62,056 nucleotides of DNA, taken from assembly GCA_044338255.1 (NCBI GenBank), contig JBIILZ010000006.1, positions 1 to 62,056 of the forward strand. Direction: 5' to 3'. Source of the stretch: Planctomycetota bacterium (GTDB taxonomy: Bacteria > Planctomycetota > UBA11346). Every line of letters begins with the position of its first letter. The first letter of the stretch is position 1. Below the pieces are notes generated by a model that worked only from the letters and a program-made list of their open reading frames with translations, ran no database searches and was not told the DNA's origin. This document shows, in pieces, positions 46,127 through 54,771 of the stretch. The position numbers were made by a program, and so were the translations under genes.

Positions 46127-46245
46127 GGGCGGGGCAGAGTCGTCACCCGGCGCGAGGCTCAAGTGGCGCCCTGCAGTCGACGAAGTAGGGTAAGGGGATG
46201 GGCCCCCCCTTGGCGTTTCTTCAGCACTACCGTCGAACCTCCTTG

Positions 46246-47655
46246 ATGTTACCAAGGTTGGCGACCCTGGCGCTGGCCGCGGGCTTCACCACTACCCTGC
46301 AATTTGTCGGTGTTCCGGCATTTTTAACCACCTTCCTGGTGCTCTGCTGGGGCCTGCTGGGCGGCCTGGTCCTGGGCATGGCGGGCTTTATTGCGGCGCT
46401 CGTTCCGTTGTGCACGCTGGTCCCGACACTTTTCAACGATGCTGACAGTAGCCCGCTGGCGGTGATCGGCTGGACTGCGGCCTCGGGAAGCTTGGCCTTG
46501 CTGTGGCACCTCTTAGAGGTCGCGCACTGGCGCCACGCCACCCGCGACCTGCGCGATCTGCTACGCCAGAGCCAACATCAGCAGCGTCACCTGGCCAACA
46601 GCGTGGGGCGTTACCCAGCACTGCAGGAGGCCAGCTTGGCCCTCGCCGGGGTGCGCGACATCGACCATTTGGCGGAAGAGCTCTGCCGACAGATCCGGGC
46701 CGTGGTCCCCGATTGCCTCGTCGCCCAAGTGCACATCGGTCTCGCCAACCAACTCAGCTGCCGCGCGAGCGCCGATTCCGAGGGCAGCCCGGTGCCCACC
46801 GAGCCCACCGAGGATGAGTGCTATGTTGCAACCGAGGCGCGCATCCTCACCCGCCGTGCTCCCGAACACATCCGCGTGATGCTGCCCTTACGCGGCGAAC
46901 GCCGAGGCAACCATTCCCGCGATGCCTTGTGCGGCGTTCTGGTGGTTGCCCTGCCCAACGATATCCAGGCCGAGCAGCTGCATGTCGAGATGCTGACCGC
47001 CCTCGCGCAGCTCGGCGGCATCGGCCTGGCCGCCGTCGATCTCGTCGGGCGAGCACGGGCCCTGGCCTTGCGCGATGACCTCACCGAACTGTTCGGCCAA
47101 TTCGAATTCCTGCGTCGCCTCGATGAACAGGTGGCGAGCGCCCGTCGTCAGCAGCAACCCCTCGGCCTGGTGATGTGCGACCTCGACCATCTTAAGCGCT
47201 TCAATGATTCATGGGGCCACGCGGCTGGCGATGTCGCCCTCAAGACCGTAGCCCGCGCCATCCAGCGCGTGGTTGAACCGATTTCCGGCGGCATCGCCTG
47301 CCGCTATGGCGGCGAGGAATTCGCGCTCTGCCTCCCCGGCTGCTCCGAGGCGTCGCTGAAGGCCATCGCCGAACGCCTGCGGATGGATATCGCCAGCGCC
47401 ATTTCCGATCCCCTGCATCCCCATCGCCGGGTCAGCGCCTCGTTGGGCATCGCCTCGCTGCGACCGCTGGAAACCAGCCGCGCCATGCTCGTCCGCGCCG
47501 ATGCCGCGACCTATCGCGCCAAGGCCAATGGACGCGACTGCGTCGAGAGCGCCAACGATATCGGGGAGCTCGACCCGGCGCAGCCGCTGCCCACCGTGAC
47601 CCAGCATTTTTTCGCCGCCAGCGTGCCCCTCCACAGCGGCCCGGCCGACTCATGA
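46246..47655 (+). CDS. Membrane diguanylate cyclase (GGEEF) with GAF-like middle region
   Basis: N-terminal TMs; DDLT, DLDHLKRFNDSWGHAAGD, RYGGEEF, ADAATYRAK..GR. Confidence 0.9.
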   Translation: MLPRLATLALAAGFTTTLQFVGVPAFLTTFLVLCWGLLGGLVLGMAGFIAALVPLCTLVPTLFNDADSSPLAVIGWTAASGSLALLWHLLEVAHWRHATRDLRDLLRQSQHQQRHLANSVGRYPALQEASLALAGVRDIDHLAEELCRQIRAVVPDCLVAQVHIGLANQLSCRASADSEGSPVPTEPTEDECYVATEARILTRRAPEHIRVMLPLRGERRGNHSRDALCGVLVVALPNDIQAEQLHVEMLTALAQLGGIGLAAVDLVGRARALALRDDLTELFGQFEFLRRLDEQVASARRQQQPLGLVMCDLDHLKRFNDSWGHAAGDVALKTVARAIQRVVEPISGGIACRYGGEEFALCLPGCSEASLKAIAERLRMDIASAISDPLHPHRRVSASLGIASLRPLETSRAMLVRADAATYRAKANGRDCVESANDIGELDPAQPLPTVTQHFFAASVPLHSGPADS

Positions 47656-48845
47656 AGGCCGCGACGTGGGTGATCGTCGCCTTACTCTTGGGCGCGGGTT
47701 GCATGTTCTGGCTCGGCATGGCGGGCATGGCGGTACTTAGCACCCTCGCCATCGGCAGCGGAGCCTGGGCGTTGTTGGCGTCCCCGGCGAAAGATGACTC
47801 CGTGCCGTCGACCGCCCAACGCTTCAATCCCGCTAAGCTCGCCGAACAGCACCAGACAGTCCTGTTGCAGCTCGCGACCCTCGCCGATGAACGCGAACTG
47901 CATCGCGGCCTGTTCGAGGTCAGCACCGAGTTGGTCGGCTGTGTCACCGAGGACGACGCGCGCGTACGCTTCGCGGCGGCGGTGCGCCGCTATTGGGAAG
48001 GCCGCTTTGCCGATCTGATGGTCTGGAACAAGGGCGCTTGGCGCAGCCTCGGCGGCCCCGCCAGCGGCCTGCCGCCGGTGCTCGATCATCCGGTGCAGCT
48101 GCCCAACGGCCTCGCTCATGAAGGCGACCTGATCCTCGATCTCTCTCCGGGAGTCGTCGGCCATGCAGCGCTCATCCTGCGCCGTGCCCGCACCCAGCCG
48201 AGCCTCGCCGGTCGCTCCTTTTCCGCGCAATTGGCGATCGCTGAGATCCTCCGCGCCCAGCTCGCCCTGTCCTTGCGCCGCGTCCTGCTTTACAGCGAGC
48301 TCCAGGATCTGGCGCGCAGCGATCCCCTGACCACCACCCATCGCCGCTGGTACGGCGAAGGCCGCCTCGCGGAACTGGTCGACGGCGGCAAGGTGGTGAC
48401 CGTGGCGATGATCGACATCGACCACTTCAAGCTGGTCAACGACACCTACGGCCACAGCGCCGGTGACTACGTTTTGACCGCAGTCGGGCGGACCTTGTCC
48501 GAGGCCCTGCGCACCAACGACCTCGTCTGCCGCTGGGGTGGCGAGGAATTCCTCGTGGTGCTCCCCGACACCTTGCCGGACGGGGCCTTCCTCGTCGCCC
48601 AGCGCCTGCGCCAAGCGATCGCGGATCTACAGGACCTCCCGACCCCGGTCACGGTCTCGATCGGGGTCGCCGCCTGCACCCAGGACGATGCCTGCGCCAA
48701 GCTCATCGCCCGGGCCGACGAGGCGCTCTACCTGGCGAAGAAGAGCGGGCGCGATTGCGTGATGATGGCGCCGATGACCAGCGCTCCCGGCAGCCTGCGG
48801 CTGCTCTCCCGGCAGCCCAAGGAGCGCAGCCGGTCGCCGGTATGA
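47652..48845 (+). CDS. Membrane diguanylate cyclase (GGEEF) with RxxD I-site
   Basis: DPLT, DIDHFKLVNDTYGHSAGD, RTND..CRWGGEEF, ADEALYLAK..GR; ATGA overlap. Confidence 0.92.
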   Translation: MKAATWVIVALLLGAGCMFWLGMAGMAVLSTLAIGSGAWALLASPAKDDSVPSTAQRFNPAKLAEQHQTVLLQLATLADERELHRGLFEVSTELVGCVTEDDARVRFAAAVRRYWEGRFADLMVWNKGAWRSLGGPASGLPPVLDHPVQLPNGLAHEGDLILDLSPGVVGHAALILRRARTQPSLAGRSFSAQLAIAEILRAQLALSLRRVLLYSELQDLARSDPLTTTHRRWYGEGRLAELVDGGKVVTVAMIDIDHFKLVNDTYGHSAGDYVLTAVGRTLSEALRTNDLVCRWGGEEFLVVLPDTLPDGAFLVAQRLRQAIADLQDLPTPVTVSIGVAACTQDDACAKLIARADEALYLAKKSGRDCVMMAPMTSAPGSLRLLSRQPKERSRSPV

Positions 48846-48852
48846 GCCGACC

Positions 48853-50520
48853 TCAGCCAGCGATATAGCGCTCGATGAGGCGGGTGGTCGCGGGATTGAA
48901 CCCGCGCACCGCGACCGGCTGCTTCTTCGACGCGCCACGGCTGGCGGTGAGCTGGGTGCGCACCTGCTTGGCGAGGACCTTGCCCAATTCCACGCCCCAT
49001 TGATCGAAGCTGTTGATGCCCCAGATGAAGCCCTGCACCGCCGTGCGGTGCTCATACAACGCCAGCAGCTGGCCGGTGGTGTAGGGATTGAGCACCGGCA
49101 GCAGCAGCACCTGCGACGGCCGGTTGCCGGGGAATTCCTTGTGCGGCACGAGGGCCTCAGGCACGCCTTCAGCGCGCAGCTCGGCGGCGGTCTTGCCATA
49201 GGCCAAGGCATCCGGCTGGGCGAAGAAATTCGACATCAGTTCATCGTGGTTGCTGACCGGCTCGCCGGGCAGGCCGATCGGCTGCTGGCTGTGCAGGAAG
49301 CCGATGAAATCAGCGGGGACCACGCGTCCCTGATGCACCAGCTGATAGAACGAATGCTGGCCGTTGGTGCCGGGCTCACCGAAATTGATCTCGCCGGCTT
49401 CGAACGGCAGCACGCTGCCATCGAGGGCCACGCGCTTGCCGTTGGACTCCATGTCGACCTGCTGGATATGCGGCGCGAGCTTCATCAGCGCCTGGCAATA
49501 GGGCAGCAGGGCGCGGGTGGAATGGCCGAGGAAGGTCGAATTCCACACTCCGAAGAGGCCCATCTGCACCGGCAGGTTCTTCTCCAGGGGCGCGGTCAAC
49601 AGGTGCTGATCGATGGCACGCGCGCCGGCCAGGAACTGCTCGACGGCTTTCCAGCCATACTGCAAAGCGAGGGGCACCAGGCCCACCGCCGAACACACGC
49701 TGTAACGCCCACCGACCCAATCCCAGAAGCCGAAGGCATTCTTGGGATCGATGCCGAACTTCTCGACTTCCGGGAGGTTCGTCGACACCGCCACCATCTG
49801 CTTGGCCACCGCCGCCGCCCCGAGGTGCTTGCTCAGCCAGCTGCGCAAGGTGCGCGCGTTGAGCATCGTCTCGGCGGTGGTGAAGGTCTTCGAGATCACC
49901 ACCACCAGGGTCGTTTCGGGATCGAGATCGTCGAGTGCGCGAGTGACATCGATGGGATCGACGTTGGCCAGGAAGCGCAGCCGGCGACCGTCGGCAGCCT
50001 TGGCGCAAGCTGGATCAGTCTTCAGCGATTCGTAGACGAACTCCGGGCCAAGATAGCTACCTCCGATGCCGATGGCGACGACATCGGTCAGGGGCTTGCC
50101 GGTGACGCCCAGCCATTTGCCGCTGCGGATCTGCTCGCTGAAGCGCTTGATGCGTTTCTGCACGGCATGGACCTCGGCGACCACGTCCTGACCATCGACG
50201 ACGATACGGCTGTCGGCGGCAGCGCGCAAGGCGATGTGCAAAACGCTGCGATTCTCAGTGGTGTTGAGCTTGGCACCGGCGGCCATGGACTTGAGCTTTT
50301 TCGGCAGGTCGGCGGCCTTGGCCAAGGCCAGCAGCAGCTTCTTGGTTTCCACGGTCGCGTTCTGGCGGCTCGAATCGAGGATCATGCCATCGTGCTCGAT
50401 GGTCAGCGCAGTCGCCCGCCGACCATCGCTGAGCAACTCGCGCAGGTGCAGTTTCTTGACCGCGGCAGCATGCGTGACGAGGGCCTTCCAGGCAGGGGAC
50501 GAAACAATGGCAGTGGTCAT
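48853..50520 (-). CDS. pgi: Glucose-6-phosphate isomerase
   Basis: [59 protein letters not shown]. Confidence 0.98.
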
Positions 50521-50584
50521 GGCGGACTCCGGTGGGCCAGAGCATGTAACGCCAGATGTTACTGCCAAGAGGCAGCGCGCAGCC

Positions 50585-52651
50585 TCACCGCCGGGCCCCG
50601 CGCCGCCGCGGTTTCCCGCCACGCGCCGGTTTATCGCTGACGGCAGCGCCGTCGTGGCCTTCGCCGCCGGCCTCGATGGCCTTGATCACATCGCGCAGGC
50701 GCGCGGCCTCCTCGAAGCGCAGATTCTCGGCAGCTTCGATCATGCGCCGAGTAAGATCGGGGAGATCGACAGCGGTTTTGACCTCGCCATCGGCGCGATA
50801 GACCACGCCCGCCTCGGCGGCCTTACGGCCCGAGAGCTGCTCGGCGAAGGTCCCGCCGAGACTGCCGACCTTGTGCGCGGTGCGCGGGACGATGCCGTGG
50901 GCGGTATTGAAGGCGAACTGCCGTTCGCGACGGCGGGCGGTCTCTTCGATCGCCGCCGCCATTCCCGGCGATGAACCGTCGGCGTAGAGCACCACCTGGC
51001 CGGCGACGTGGCGCGCGGCGCGGCCGATGGTCTGGATCAGACTGGTCTTCGAGCGCAGGAAGCCCTCCTTGTCGGCGTCGAAGATCGCCACCAGTGAAAC
51101 CTCGGGCAGATCCAGGCCTTCGCGCAGGAGGTTCACCCCGATCAGGCACTGCGTCTCACCGCTGCGCAGACCGCTGAGCACCTCGATGCGTTCGATGGCG
51201 TCGAGGTCGCTATGCAGGTAGGTGGCGCTGATGCCAGCCTCGCTGAGGTATTCGGCGAGGTCTTCGGCAAGGCGCTTGGTGATTGTCGTCACCAGGGTGC
51301 GCTCGTCGCGAGCACAGCGCAGCTTGACCTCGGCGATGAGATCCTCGACCTGGCCGGAGGTCGGACGCACCATAACCACCGGATCGATGATGCCGGTCGG
51401 GCGGATGAGCTGTTCGGTACGCGCGACTTCGGTCTTGGCCTCGTACACCGAGGGCGTGGCGCTGACGAAGAGCAGCTGCGGGACCAAGGCCTCCCACTCG
51501 GCGAAGGTGCACGGACGATTGTCGATCGCGCTCGGCAGGCGGAAACCGTGCTGGACGAGGGTCTCCTTGCGGCTGCGGTCACCGGCATACATGCCGCCGA
51601 TCTGCGGGATGGTGACGTGGCTCTCGTCGACCACGCAGAGGAAATCCGGCGGGAAGAAATCGTACAGGCAGTACGGCCGTTCCCCGGGCTTGCGGCCGGT
51701 GAGGTGGCGCGAGTAGTTCTCGATGCCCTGGCAGGTGCCGACCTCCTCAAGCATCTCGAGGTCGTAGGTGGTGCGCGATTGCAGGCGTTGGGCCTCGAGC
51801 AGCGCCCCTTGCACCAGCAGCTCGGAATGGCGTTGCGCAAGTTCGTCGCGGATGCCGGCCAAGGCGCGCTCGACGGTCGGCTCGTCGACGACAAAGTGTT
51901 TCGCCGGGTAGATGTTCATCTGCTCGTGACGCCCAAGGATTTCGCCGGTGAGGGTATGGATGGTGGCGATCTCCTCGATCTGATCTCCGAAGAAGACCAC
52001 GCGGATGGCGCTGTCATCGTAGGCCGGCCAGAGATCGACGACATCGCCGCGCACGCGGAATTTTCCGCGCTGGAAGGACAGGTCGCCGCGGTTGTACTGG
52101 ATCGCCACCAGGCTCGCGAGGAAGGCATCGCGCTCGAGGGTATTGCCCACCGCCAGGACCACCGTCAGGTCCTGATACGAACGCGGCGAACCCAGGCCGT
52201 AGATGCTCGAGACGCTGGCGATGATGATCACATCGCGACGCGAGAGCAGCGAGCGGGTCGCCGAGAGGCGCAGCTTGTCGATCTCCTCGTTGATCGAGGA
52301 CTCCTTCTCGATGTAGAGATCCTTGCCCGGGACGTAGGCCTCGGGCTGGTAGTAGTCGTAGTAGCTGACGAAGTACTCCACCGCATTGTCGGGAAAGAAA
52401 CCCTTGAACTCAGCGTATAATTGCGCTGCCAAGGTCTTGTTGTGCGAGAGCACGAGGGTCGGCCGCTGGAGGTTCTGGATGACGTTGGCGACGGTGAAGG
52501 TCTTGCCGCTGCCGGTCACACCGAGCAGCGTCGCGGCCCGGTCGCCGCGCTGCAGCGACTCGGTCAGCGCGGCGATTGCCGTCGGCTGGTCGCCCATCGG
52601 GGCGTAGGGAGCGGCAAGGCGGAAACCGGCGGGCTCGAAGGCTGGCGACAT
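50585..52651 (-). CDS. uvrB: Excinuclease ABC subunit B
   Basis: [57 protein letters not shown]. Confidence 0.98.
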
Positions 52652-52737
52652 GCGGCGACGGTATACCCGCCTGCGCAGATGCATCAGCTCATTGAGGCCC
52701 CCGTTTCGCCGGCCGGCATCAGCCATAGGCTGATCCC

Positions 52738-54771
52738 ATGGTGGCCGCGCCGCATCCCTTTGCCAAGCATCGCCCTGCCAACCGCCGGCTGGGATTGCGA
52801 CTGCTCGCACTGGGGCTCGCCTGGGCATCTCTCGCCAGTGCCGCCGAGGGCTTGTCCCTGCCACTGCCCCAGCCACTGCCACTGCCCCAAACCCAGCCCC
52901 AGCCCTTGCCAACCGCTGGCAGCGAGCACGCGGCGGTGGTCCACGCCTTGCAGGCCCTGGCCCGCGGCGACAGCCAGCCGCTGCTGGCACTGCCCGGACA
53001 TAATCTCGCCGAAGCCCCGGCGATCACTGATCCCGAGGATGCGGCCTTGGCGCGGCGGTGGACGACACTCTTGCCGCTGACCATCGCCCGCCTGCCGACC
53101 GCGCGGCAGGCGCCCGTGCTCGCAGCCCTCGATGAGCTCTATGCCCAGGCCAGCGCCCAGGCCAGCGCCCAGGCCAGCGCCCACGACAGCACCCACGCCA
53201 GCACCCAGCCCTGGGATTATCTTCCGGCACCGGCGGCGAGCCGGGCGGTGGCGCAGGCTGCAGCCCGGGCCTTCGATCAGGGGCGTCTGCGGCTGGCACT
53301 CAGCCTGCTCGCTGATGGCCCACGGGCGCAGGCCGCGCGCGCACTGCTCGACCTCCCCCTGCCGCGCCCGGCCCTGCCCGTCGCCAGTCGTCGACAAGCC
53401 CCCACGCCCAGGCTCCTCCAGCCTGGCGACGGCTGGCTCTTCGGACTCGATCCCGCCGGACGGGTGCGCTGGCAGCGACGCTGCGAACGCCAGGCGCAGG
53501 TCGTCGTCGGCGAGCAATCGGCGGTGATCGTCGAGACCGCCGGCGCCGCGGTGATCGACAGCGAAGGCCGCGCCCGAGCCTTACCGCCCTTGCCCGGTTT
53601 TGCCAAACCGTGGGCGATCACTGCCCAATGCGTGTGGTTCGTAGCCGGCACCCATGCCTGGCGGGTGGTGCTCGGTACACCCCTTGCGGTCACCGACATG
53701 ACCCTCCCGGCGGCCCCCCTCGGCGCACCGCTGCTGCGCGGTGACGATGCCTGGTGGTTGACCCGTGAAAAACTGGTGATGACGCATGGCACCACTATCA
53801 GCACCACTATCACGGAATCTTTGCCGCATCTCCTGGCGCTCTCGCCCTATGCCAGCCTGGTCGCGCATCCGCAGGGCGGTGAGATCCGCGATGGCCAGGA
53901 CTCCTGGCTGGTCGCTGACCGCCAGGCGGTGCCGCCGCTGAAGCAGGGCGAGGCGTGGTTGCTCGCCGGTGCGCCGGTGCAGGCCGCGACTTTTGCTGCC
54001 GCCAGTGCCGCCACCAGTGCCGCCGCCACTAGTGCCGCCGCCAGTGCCGATAGCGAAAGCCGTGATCTGGCTTTCCGCTGCGCGCTGGCACTGCCGGCAA
54101 GCACCTCGGCAGCACTGTCAGCAGCAGCCACCACGCCTCAGCAGCAGGTCAGCGCGTGGTTGGCGCGCGCCCGTCTCGGCGAAGGCGAAGAGGCTTTGGC
54201 CACCGCCGCTCTCACGACCTTCGCCGAGCACGAACCGGCGCTCCTGGTCACCGACGCGCACACCGATCTGACCTGGCCGACGTCGGTATGGCCGGTGCAG
54301 ACCACGCTACGCGCCTGGGCGCTGCGCGACGACGCGCAAGCGCCACAGATCAGCCTGAACTCGGATGCCCGGCAGGTGCGCGTGCGGGCGACGTGGCCGG
54401 ATGGGTTACGCTGGTGGCAACGAAGTTGGCCGACCCGGCCACTCATCGATGCACCGAGCCGCAGCTGGGCGGTGCAGCAAGGGATGTTGGTGATCGCCGA
54501 TGGCGCCGAGCACCTGATGGTATTGAGCGCCACAACCGGCGAGCTCCTGGTGGATGCCGAGGTCCCCGCCGACCTCGATCCGGGCCTGGTGGTACGCTGC
54601 GGAGCGCGGCAGGTGGCCCTGCTCAGCGATCAAGGACGGACCTTGCTGGTGGTCCGTGGCTCGACCGTGCAGCGCCGGCCGCTGGCCGTGGTCGGACGCA
54701 GCCTACGCGGGGCGGATAACGCCGTGATCGTGGTCACCTCCGAAGGCGAGCAGCGCGTGGCGCTGCCGTGA
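52738..54771 (+). CDS. Hypothetical exported protein with degenerate beta-propeller-like segments and internal repeats
   Basis: Signal-like N-terminus; LFGLDPAGRVRWQ and LSATTGELL resemble PQQ/BamB blades; AQAS, ATSAA and PLPQ repeats. Start uncertain. Confidence 0.65.
   Translation: MVAAPHPFAKHRPANRRLGLRLLALGLAWASLASAAEGLSLPLPQPLPLPQTQPQPLPTAGSEHAAVVHALQALARGDSQPLLALPGHNLAEAPAITDPEDAALARRWTTLLPLTIARLPTARQAPVLAALDELYAQASAQASAQASAHDSTHASTQPWDYLPAPAASRAVAQAAARAFDQGRLRLALSLLADGPRAQAARALLDLPLPRPALPVASRRQAPTPRLLQPGDGWLFGLDPAGRVRWQRRCERQAQVVVGEQSAVIVETAGAAVIDSEGRARALPPLPGFAKPWAITAQCVWFVAGTHAWRVVLGTPLAVTDMTLPAAPLGAPLLRGDDAWWLTREKLVMTHGTTISTTITESLPHLLALSPYASLVAHPQGGEIRDGQDSWLVADRQAVPPLKQGEAWLLAGAPVQAATFAAASAATSAAATSAAASADSESRDLAFRCALALPASTSAALSAAATTPQQQVSAWLARARLGEGEEALATAALTTFAEHEPALLVTDAHTDLTWPTSVWPVQTTLRAWALRDDAQAPQISLNSDARQVRVRATWPDGLRWWQRSWPTRPLIDAPSRSWAVQQGMLVIADGAEHLMVLSATTGELLVDAEVPADLDPGLVVRCGARQVALLSDQGRTLLVVRGSTVQRRPLAVVGRSLRGADNAVIVVTSEGEQRVALP

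What the first reader, a model, noticed from the sequence alone, without database searches (positions are those of the whole stretch)
48853..50520. Bacterial PGI closely resembling plant/protist cytosolic PGI
Seen: [159 protein letters not shown] and GFN..TT.L. As I recall them, these track land-plant PgiC almost motif for motif and differ from E. coli Pgi. The gene has host-like codons, no introns and bacterial neighbours. Inference: an old eukaryote-to-bacterium transfer, or a bacterial sister/donor lineage for plant cytosolic PGI.
Basis: partly seen in the sequence, partly recalled or inferred. Interest (0 to 1): 0.75.

Follow-up and report, generated by a model that had tools for sequence, protein, structure and literature searches.

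The report
Plant-type sugar isomerase in Planctomycete bacteria
This bacterium's working glucose-6-phosphate isomerase is about as similar to the cytosolic enzyme of plants and red algae as those two are to each other, so the gene crossed between bacteria and eukaryotes long ago, but which way it went is still unresolved.

Summary
Window 48853-50520 (-) is an intact 555-aa glucose-6-phosphate isomerase (PGI). Its best solved relative is wheat cytosolic PGI (789 bits, against 469 for E. coli). It is 64-68% identical to land-plant and red-algal PGIs and about 50% to ordinary bacterial long PGIs.

It is not a one-off. The same type occurs in 24 of 24 sampled genomes of its own Planctomycete family and 4 of 6 of a second family. 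It was not found in the other 96 families sampled. It also occurs in a Permianibacter group (7 of 26) and a high-GC lineage (2 of 26).

Trees place these bacteria firmly inside the clade of plant, red-algal, chlorarachniophyte, stramenopile and alveolate PGIs. Ordinary Planctomycete long PGIs sit with Actinomycetota instead. Whether the bacteria are nested among the eukaryotes or are their sister is not resolved: results changed with outgroup sampling (p-AU 0.08-0.58).

Codon usage is host-like, so the event is old.

In this family the native short PGI paralogue has lost its catalytic glutamate (21 of 21 genomes). The plant-type enzyme is therefore the only catalytically intact PGI found. This is a new member of a known kind, of moderate interest.

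The parts
48853..50520 (-). Glucose-6-phosphate isomerase (PGI) coding sequence, 555 codons plus stop; plant/algal cytosolic type
   Evidence: ORF and translation P0001. PF00342 scores 654 bits (cut-off 22). NCBIfam NF001211 scores 666.1 bits (cut-off 492). It aligns end to end with wheat cytosolic PGI 7E77.
50521..50622 (-). Upstream part of the open frame back to a GTG at 50622; probably not translated. It contains an SD-like GGAG at 50527-50530, 6 nt before the ATG at 50520.
   Evidence: Read from the sequence. Homologues align from residue 2-5 of P0001 onward. The uvrB stop lies at 50585-50587, inside this stretch.
50585..52990 (-). uvrB ORF directly upstream on the same strand, 64 nt from the PGI start; co-transcription is possible but not shown
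   Evidence: Pfam UvrB_inter, Helicase_C, UvrB, ResIII and UVR. No sigma-70-like promoter or intrinsic terminator was found in 48600-50900.
47652..48845 (+). GGDEF diguanylate-cyclase gene converging on the PGI stop with a 7-nt gap; a neighbour, not part of the PGI story
   Evidence: PF00990 scores 126.7 bits. This neighbourhood is shared only with the closest relative L004.

Best explanation
[quoted passage not shown] It belongs to the PGI lineage otherwise known as the cytosolic enzyme of plants, red algae, chlorarachniophytes, stramenopiles and alveolates.

My preferred history is as follows. An ancestor of a small set of bacteria took the gene from a eukaryote, most likely an early alga of the plant/red-algal group, long enough ago for codon usage to become fully host-like. 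The gene then spread among a few bacterial lineages: two Planctomycete families, a Permianibacter group and one high-GC lineage. In this window's family it took over from the native short PGI, whose surviving paralogue has lost the catalytic glutamate.

Shown: enzyme family, intact active site, clade membership, patchy bacterial distribution and the Glu-to-Val paralogue. Inferred: direction of transfer, functional take-over and enzymatic activity itself.
For: Enzyme. PF00342 and NF001211 score above their cut-offs. All ten active-site residues that PMC9436075 lists for wheat PGIc (G156, S157, S212, K213, T214, T217, Q356, E360, H391, K516) are identical in the HMMER alignment.

Clade. PDB ranking. 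Group identities are 66% to red algae, 64% to plants, 53% to stramenopiles, 49% to alveolates, 51% to Actinomycetota and 50% to other Planctomycete long PGIs; red algae versus plants is 65%. The joint clade has support 98/92 (89 rows, LG+G4), 99/99 and 92/97 (52 rows, PMSF C20) and 97-98 (53 rows).

Direction. In the 52-row careful tree the 12 bacteria sit in a 26-row clade with green plants, red algae and chlorarachniophytes, excluding all named stramenopiles and alveolates (97/94).

Distribution. The bacterial distribution is narrow. Matches of 66% identity or more occur in 15 of 16 genomes of family f1 (G000 included) and 4 of 6 of f22. No genome of the other 96 families had one in a sample of 301 Planctomycete genomes. 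In the separate relatives sample, 24 of 24 f1 genomes have it. It is also in 7 of 26 Permianibacter relatives and 2 of 26 relatives of L014's genome. The bacterial clade is shallow (59-73% internal identity), while the eukaryotic one is deep (42-65%).

Published intron data. Santana-Molina et al. 2025 place Arabidopsis NP_199088.1 and the stramenopile and alveolate PGIs in one tentative LECA orthogroup (supplement 7). They list intron positions 2146 and 2316 as shared between animals, fungi, Acanthamoeba and a streptophyte/chlorophyte gene set (supplement 8).

Take-over. The short paralogue has Val in place of the catalytic Glu in 21 of 21 f1 genomes examined, while 7 of 7 other families keep Glu. 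No cupin-type or PGI/PMI-type gene was found in G000, which is 89% complete. In f22 the plant-type gene is the only PF00342 match in 4 of 5 genomes.
Against: Nesting is not statistically secured. Holding the named eukaryotes together with the bacteria outside costs 41.9 lnL (p-AU 0.134, LG+G4) and 16.8 lnL (p-AU 0.079, PMSF). Neither rejects the alternative.

With eight Margulisbacteria-type outgroup sequences added, that constrained tree was 7.7 lnL better than the quick free tree (p-AU 0.58 against 0.42). The careful free search on that set did not finish. Its best likelihood so far (-34737.30) is 12.1 above the constrained tree, but I never saw its topology.

The named stramenopile and alveolate rows have long branches, so attraction to the outgroup could fake the nesting.

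The nearest outgroup of the whole clade is bacterial. A bacteria-to-eukaryote history therefore needs only one interdomain transfer.

L013 and L014 move between trees.

My reading of which Arabidopsis identifier in supplement 8 is the cytosolic gene is an inference from the main text. Activity was not measured.
Confidence: 0.45

Rival explanations
1. Same enzyme and same clade, but the direction is reversed. These bacteria, or an unsampled bacterial lineage from which they took the gene, are the closest living relatives of the donor of the cytosolic PGI of plants, algae, stramenopiles and alveolates. The eukaryotic clade then arose from within bacterial diversity: Margulisbacteria type, then Planctomycete type, then eukaryotes.
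For: The nearest outgroup, P0141, has relatives named Margulisiibacteriota, Saganbacteria, Omnitrophota and a Bacteroidetes MAG. With that outgroup sampled by 8 rows, the tree (Margulis type, (plant-type bacteria, eukaryotes)) was 7.7 lnL better than the quick free tree. AU tests never rejected this arrangement (p 0.134, 0.079, 0.58). It needs one interdomain transfer rather than two. Santana-Molina et al. label the orthogroup as of bacterial, unresolved origin. In their main text they name Planctomycetota-Verrucomicrobiota as possible donors of PGK, G6PD and RPE.
Against: The careful site-heterogeneous tree supports nesting with Archaeplastida at 97/94. Rooting on the bacterial branch places stramenopiles and alveolates inside the plant/red-algal group. 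Only 2 of 98 sampled Planctomycete families carry the gene, and the phylum's common PGIs are of other types, so Planctomycetes themselves acquired it. The bacterial clade is shallow and its stem very short. Published shared intron positions point to a LECA-age eukaryotic gene.
Confidence: 0.35
2. There is no special relationship. The gene is an ordinary, slowly evolving bacterial PGI that looks plant-like only because both have kept ancestral residues (short-branch attraction).
For: Both the Planctomycete and the plant/red-algal sequences have short branches.
Against: The joint clade excludes all other bacterial long PGIs with 98/92 to 99/99 support under two models and three taxon sets. Identity drops from 64-68% to about 50% outside the clade. 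Other Planctomycete long PGIs group with Actinomycetota at 98/98.
Confidence: 0.03
3. The gene is eukaryotic contamination or a mis-binned contig in a metagenome-assembled genome.
For: The genome is a 219-contig MAG. One relative, L014, carries an implausible species label (71% GC).
Against: The gene lies mid-contig in a 62-kb window between uvrB and GGDEF genes and has host codon usage. It recurs in 24 of 24 family genomes, in named Tautonia isolates on contigs of 310-635 kb and on a 1.5-Mb contig of G215. It has no introns.
Confidence: 0.01

Closest known systems
Wheat cytosolic PGI, TaPGIc (PDB 7E77/7E78; PMC9436075)
   Same: It is the best solved relative (789 bits). The alignment covers query 6-554, including the C-terminal domain that the paper shows is needed for dimer formation and activity. 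All ten listed active-site residues are identical.
   Different: P0001 is bacterial, intron-less, has high GC3 and sits next to uvrB. It is about 64-66% identical to land-plant PGIc, measured on four other plants.
Arabidopsis thaliana NP_199088.1, in orthogroup 'Gpi_K01810-LECA-B-U' of Santana-Molina et al. 2025 (PMC11976288). That this record is PGIC is my recall.
   Same: Same PGI lineage. The close A. halleri protein is 66% identical to P0001. The orthogroup also holds the stramenopile and alveolate sequences that flank P0001 in my trees.
   Different: The paper treats the orthogroup as eukaryotic, tentatively LECA-derived, and says its prokaryotic sister groups are unresolved. The text I could read does not mention Planctomycete members.
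Annotated PGIs of Tautonia marina, T. rosea and Tautonia sp. JC769, and of Isosphaeraceae and Planctomycetes MAGs (names from NCBI/UniRef)
   Same: 69-72% identical over 99% of the length, in the same bacterial subclade.
   Different: They are annotated only as 'glucose-6-phosphate isomerase'. They belong to a different Planctomycete lineage from the window. Four of five genomes of family f22 have no second PGI-family gene, and the fifth has no PF00342 match at all. That f22 is the Isosphaeraceae/Tautonia family is my guess from the named hits, not a call result.
E. coli Pgi (PDB 3NBU) and ordinary bacterial long PGIs (NF001211)
   Same: Same fold, family and reaction. P0001 passes the same NCBIfam equivalog model.
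   Different: Only 469 bits, against 789 for the wheat enzyme. Unnamed bacterial-type representatives are 41-49% identical and lie in a separate part of the tree.

Membership tests
Glucose-6-phosphate isomerase, long type (Pfam PF00342; NCBIfam NF001211; EC 5.3.1.9) | Profile score above the curated cut-offs | tested here: met
   PF00342 scores 654 bits against a cut-off of 22. NF001211 scores 666.1 against 492.
Glucose-6-phosphate isomerase, long type (Pfam PF00342; NCBIfam NF001211; EC 5.3.1.9) | Catalytic and substrate-binding residues (TaPGIc G156, S157, S212, K213, T214, T217, Q356, E360, H391, K516) | tested here: met
   All ten are identical in the alignment to 7E77. The residue list comes from PMC9436075, passages read.
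Glucose-6-phosphate isomerase, long type (Pfam PF00342; NCBIfam NF001211; EC 5.3.1.9) | Full length, including the C-terminal domain required for the active dimer | tested here: met
   Query 6-554 aligns to chain 8-552 of 567. The role of the C-terminal domain is from PMC9436075. Dimer formation itself was not modelled.
Glucose-6-phosphate isomerase, long type (Pfam PF00342; NCBIfam NF001211; EC 5.3.1.9) | [quoted passage not shown] | not testable with these tools
   Needs an enzyme assay or complementation of a pgi mutant.
Cytosolic-type PGI clade of Archaeplastida, stramenopiles, alveolates and chlorarachniophytes | Closer to named members of the clade than to any other PGI group | tested here: met
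   64-68% identity to plants and red algae against about 50% to Actinomycetota and other Planctomycete long PGIs. PDB ranking.
Cytosolic-type PGI clade of Archaeplastida, stramenopiles, alveolates and chlorarachniophytes | Forms one supported clade with them, excluding ordinary bacterial PGIs | tested here: met
   Support 98/92, 99/99 and 92/97, and 97-98 SH-aLRT.
Cytosolic-type PGI clade of Archaeplastida, stramenopiles, alveolates and chlorarachniophytes | Position inside eukaryotic diversity, meaning derived from a eukaryotic gene | tested here: inconclusive
   Nested at 97/94, but p-AU for the alternative is 0.134, 0.079 and 0.58. The last careful search did not finish.
Cytosolic-type PGI clade of Archaeplastida, stramenopiles, alveolates and chlorarachniophytes | Encoded in a eukaryotic nuclear genome (introns, eukaryotic neighbours) | tested here: not met
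   The ORF is continuous, the neighbours are bacterial and codon usage matches the host. It is a bacterial member of the clade, not a eukaryotic gene.

The most novel reading that the evidence does not exclude
The Planctomycete and Permianibacter PGIs are the closest living bacterial relatives of the donor that gave the common ancestor of plants, algae, stramenopiles and alveolates its cytosolic PGI. That would add PGI to the central-carbon enzymes (PGK, G6PD, RPE) for which a Planctomycetota-Verrucomicrobiota donor has been proposed. It would also mean this part of eukaryotic glycolysis was replaced after the last eukaryotic common ancestor.
Probability: 0.3. Interest if true: 0.7.

Novelty: new member of a known kind. 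Interest (0 to 1): 0.45.

Why it matters
PGI is one of the glycolytic enzymes whose eukaryotic history is openly unresolved. Santana-Molina et al. [quoted passage not shown]

A compact bacterial group whose PGI is as close to red algae and plants as those are to each other gives that question a concrete handle. It is either a clean, old case of a eukaryotic housekeeping gene moving into free-living bacteria, or the nearest living relative of the bacterial source of the plant/algal enzyme.

The family-wide loss of the catalytic glutamate in the native paralogue also offers a natural example of a foreign enzyme displacing the resident one while the resident is kept for some other role.

For annotation nothing changes: the gene is a PGI.

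Tried and rejected
- **Cluster names.** Organism names came instead from the search for homologous proteins, record titles, and look-ups of short peptides in supplement 7 of PMC11976288.
- **Peptide look-ups.** 4 of 18 peptides found a row, and the one Arabidopsis peptide did.
- **PDB naming.** PDB look-ups named only P0145 (1008 bits to 3PR3). P0135 and P0159 stayed unclear.
- **Protein atlas and earlier findings.** The atlas gave only generic PGI clusters for P0141. The search of earlier findings returned three unrelated windows.
- **Synteny.** Only the closest relative, L004, shares the GGDEF neighbours. 13 other loci share none within about 3 kb.
- **Promoter and terminator scan.** It found nothing.
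- **Unfinished or failed tree runs.** The 89-row site-heterogeneous tree made no progress in the time allowed. treekit's own AU step under the full mixture could not finish. I ran the same two-tree test with the stored PMSF site frequencies instead.
- **Literature.** Four full-text searches found no statement that Planctomycete PGIs belong to the plant/algal clade. They were: PGI with Planctomycetes and cytosolic; PGI with horizontal transfer and Apicomplexa; PGI with Grauvogel; and Planctomycetes with eukaryote-to-bacteria and glycolysis. The supplementary PDF of PMC11976288 (its PGI tree and Supplementary Discussion) was too large to read and may show it.
- **Recalled paper.** Grauvogel et al. 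2007 is recalled, not read.

Full report
**1. What is there**

The minus strand of the window carries an open frame at 48853..50622. From the ATG at 50520 it encodes a 555-residue protein, P0001. That ATG is the likely start for three reasons:
- A GGAG sits 6 nt upstream of it.
- The uvrB stop codon lies at 50585-50587, inside the longer frame.
- Homologues align from residue 2-5 onward.

The protein is a full-length glucose-6-phosphate isomerase. PF00342 scores 654 bits (cut-off 22) and NCBIfam NF001211 scores 666.1 bits (cut-off 492). The neighbours are an ABC-F ATPase, two GGDEF proteins and uvrB.

The genome is a metagenome-assembled one of 4.04 Mb in 219 contigs, 89% complete and 1.9% contaminated. 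From the named relatives it is a Planctomycete. One same-family genome coincides with record BJHQ01. A published table files that record under GTDB class/order/family UBA11346.

**2. Is it really plant-like?**

Yes. Against all PDB sequences the best match is 7E77 at 789 bits, aligned end to end. Then come 3UJH (673), 2WU8 (542) and 3PR3 (515). E. coli 3NBU scores 469 and human 1IAT 461.

PMC9436075 (passages read) identifies 7E77 as wheat cytosolic PGI, 7E76 as the plastid isozyme, 3UJH as Toxoplasma gondii and 3NBU as E. coli. That 3PR3 is from Plasmodium and 2Q8N from Thermotoga is my recall.

BLASTP identities of P0001:
- 64-66% to Arabidopsis halleri, Actinidia, Carex and Tripterygium
- 67-68% to four red algae
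- 60% to Haematococcus
- 41-49% to the ordinary bacterial representatives

Group means make the point. The window's family is 66% identical to red algae and 64% to plants, while red algae and plants are 65% identical to each other. The same family is 53% identical to stramenopiles, 49% to alveolates, 51% to Actinomycetota and 50% to the long PGIs of other Planctomycetes.

**3. How it works**

The ten residues that PMC9436075 lists as the active site of wheat PGIc are identical in the alignment. They include the catalytic Glu360, His391 from the partner subunit, Lys516 and the phosphate-binding Ser/Thr/Lys cluster. The C-terminal domain needed for the active dimer is also present. I therefore read the protein as an active, dimeric PGI. 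Activity itself is inferred.

**4. It is not a single odd gene**

The protein search returned, among its best 120 hits, proteins of 68-97% identity. The named ones are Planctomycetes MAGs, an Isosphaeraceae MAG and three Tautonia species.

Whole-genome searches gave these counts:

| Group searched | Genomes with the plant type |
|---|---|
| Window's family f1 (relatives sample) | 24 of 24, some cut by contig ends |
| f1, G000 included (301-genome phylum sample, 98 families) | 15 of 16, at 66% identity or more |
| Family f22 (same phylum sample) | 4 of 6, at 66% identity or more |
| Other 96 families (same sample) | none; 48 genomes have a long PGI of 45-54% identity and 234 have no match at E 1e-100 |
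| Relatives of the Permianibacter genome (Gammaproteobacteria) | 7 of 26, at 61-66% |
| Relatives of the genome holding L014 | 2 of 26 |

Across one genome per prokaryote species, the 14 best loci (61-86%) are 12 Planctomycetota, one Permianibacter and L014, a contig labelled Klebsiella MAG. The next 66 loci are 47-53% identical and almost all Actinomycetota. The L014 contig has 71% GC, so its label is doubtful.

**5. The native PGI of this family is catalytically dead**

G000 has a second PGI-family gene of 464 aa on contig C191. It falls below every NCBIfam PGI cut-off.

Aligned to the short PGI 2Q8N, its catalytic Glu is Val and, in this genus, the catalytic His is Gln. Across the family the Glu-to-Val change is present in 21 of 21 genomes examined. 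Seven of seven other Planctomycete families keep the Glu in the same motif.

G000 has no cupin-type or PGI/PMI-type gene. In f22 the plant-type gene is the only PF00342 match in 4 of 5 genomes, and the fifth has none.

The plant-type enzyme is thus the only catalytically intact PGI I could find. The simplest reading is that it displaced the resident enzyme.

**6. Phylogeny**

Names for eukaryotic rows came from source names and from matching short peptides to the sequence table of Santana-Molina et al. 2025. These gave:
- P0157 is the Pelagomonas sequence.
- P0136 is the Amoebophrya sequence.
- P0151 is the Aureococcus sequence.
- P0126 is close to the Triparma sequence.
- All are in their orthogroup 'Gpi_K01810-LECA-B-U', as is Arabidopsis NP_199088.1.

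Fifteen in-clade representatives remain unnamed.

Three results are stable across a 161-row FastTree, an 89-row LG+G4 tree and 52- and 53-row site-heterogeneous trees:
- (a) The plant-type bacteria fall in one clade with green plants, red algae, chlorarachniophytes, stramenopiles and alveolates. Support is 98/92, 99/99 with 92/97, and 97-98.
- (b) The ordinary long PGIs of seven other Planctomycete genomes fall elsewhere. Five sit with Actinomycetota (98/98) and two with other bacteria.
- (c) The Planctomycete sequences stay together: 96 SH-aLRT, 97/70 and 95.

The positions of L013 and L014 are unstable.

**7. Direction of transfer**

*For nesting in eukaryotes.* The careful 52-row tree puts all 12 bacteria in a 26-row clade with green plants, red algae and chlorarachniophytes, excluding every named stramenopile and alveolate (97/94). 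Other points agree with this:
- The bacterial distribution is narrow and patchy.
- The bacterial clade is shallow while the eukaryotic clade is deep.
- Rooting on the bacterial branch forces stramenopiles and alveolates inside the plant/red-algal group.
- Published intron positions are shared between animals, fungi, Acanthamoeba and a streptophyte/chlorophyte gene set (supplement 8).

I infer that this gene set is the cytosolic one, because the main text assigns the other Arabidopsis entries to the chloroplast clade.

*Against nesting.* The alternative was never rejected (p-AU 0.134; 0.079). The nearest outgroup turned out to be bacterial: relatives are named Margulisiibacteriota, Saganbacteria, Omnitrophota and a Bacteroidetes MAG.

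When I sampled that outgroup with eight rows, the tree (Margulis type, (plant-type bacteria, eukaryotes)) was 7.7 lnL better than the quick free tree. The careful free search then found a tree 12.1 lnL better still, but it did not finish and I did not see its topology.

Long stramenopile and alveolate branches may also be pulled toward the outgroup.

I conclude that membership in the clade is firm and the direction is open. I put about 0.45 on alga-to-bacterium and 0.35 on a bacterial sister or donor lineage. In either case the Planctomycetes themselves acquired the gene, because the rest of the phylum uses other PGI types.

**8. Age**

Codon usage and GC3 are those of the host. The neighbourhood is shared only with the closest relative. 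The gene is fixed in whole families. The event is therefore old.

**9. Comparison with what is known**

A joint subtree of alveolate, stramenopile and plant/red-algal cytosolic PGIs was described by Grauvogel et al. 2007 (recalled, not read here).

Santana-Molina et al. 2025 (main text and preprint passages read) state that eukaryotic and prokaryotic PGI sequences branch paraphyletically and that the origin is unresolved.

I found no text naming Planctomycetes in this clade. Their supplementary PDF, which holds the PGI tree and Supplementary Discussion, could not be read and may show it.

I therefore file this as a new member of a known kind: an ordinary enzyme with an unusual, old interdomain history.

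**10. Verdict**

Interest is moderate (0.45). The Glu-to-Val native paralogue is the most tangible new lead.

Noticed in passing
G000 contig C191:12633-14024 (locus L099/L003), outside the window: A second, short PGI-family gene (464 aa) has the catalytic Glu replaced by Val. In this genus the catalytic His is also replaced by Gln. The Glu-to-Val change is in 21 of 21 family genomes examined, while 7 of 7 other Planctomycete families keep Glu. The gene is conserved and intact, so it probably has a new, non-catalytic or different role.
   Followed up: partly
window 46198-47655 and 47652-48845 (+): Two tandem GGDEF diguanylate-cyclase genes overlap by 4 nt. Their N-terminal regions have no Pfam match. 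The pair is shared with the closest relative, L004.
   Followed up: no
window 52738-54771 (+): A 677-aa ORF has no Pfam match. Its N-terminus is rich in Ala/Pro/Gln short repeats and it lies divergent from uvrB.
   Followed up: no
L013 (Permianibacter sp. MAG) and its relatives G317-G323: A gammaproteobacterial group also carries the plant-type PGI (7 of 26 relatives, 61-66% identity). One genome, G319, holds both this type and an ordinary 44% type.
   Followed up: partly
L014 (contig CAMCWU010000035.1, labelled Klebsiella pneumoniae MAG): The stretch has 71% GC and a plant-type PGI, and only 2 of 26 relatives of its genome share the gene. The species label of the record looks wrong.
   Followed up: partly
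G045 (family f22, 94% complete): No PF00342 match at all, although four sister genomes have the plant-type PGI as their only one. This genome may use another PGI type or lack the step.
   Followed up: no
Proteins P0157 (Pelagomonas) and P0151 (Aureococcus) in supplement 7 of PMC11976288: Both pelagophyte PGIs of this clade are predicted to be mitochondrion-targeted in the published table. The Pelagomonas-type clade has a very long stem and moves between trees.
   Followed up: no
Proteins P0028, P0039, P0149, P0272: Several relatives are 738-1180 aa and contain more than one PGI copy or part-copy. Examples are the Haematococcus protein of 1178 aa and a metagenome protein that starts with the C-terminal half of a PGI. 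These are either real tandem fusions or assembly or gene-model artefacts.
   Followed up: no
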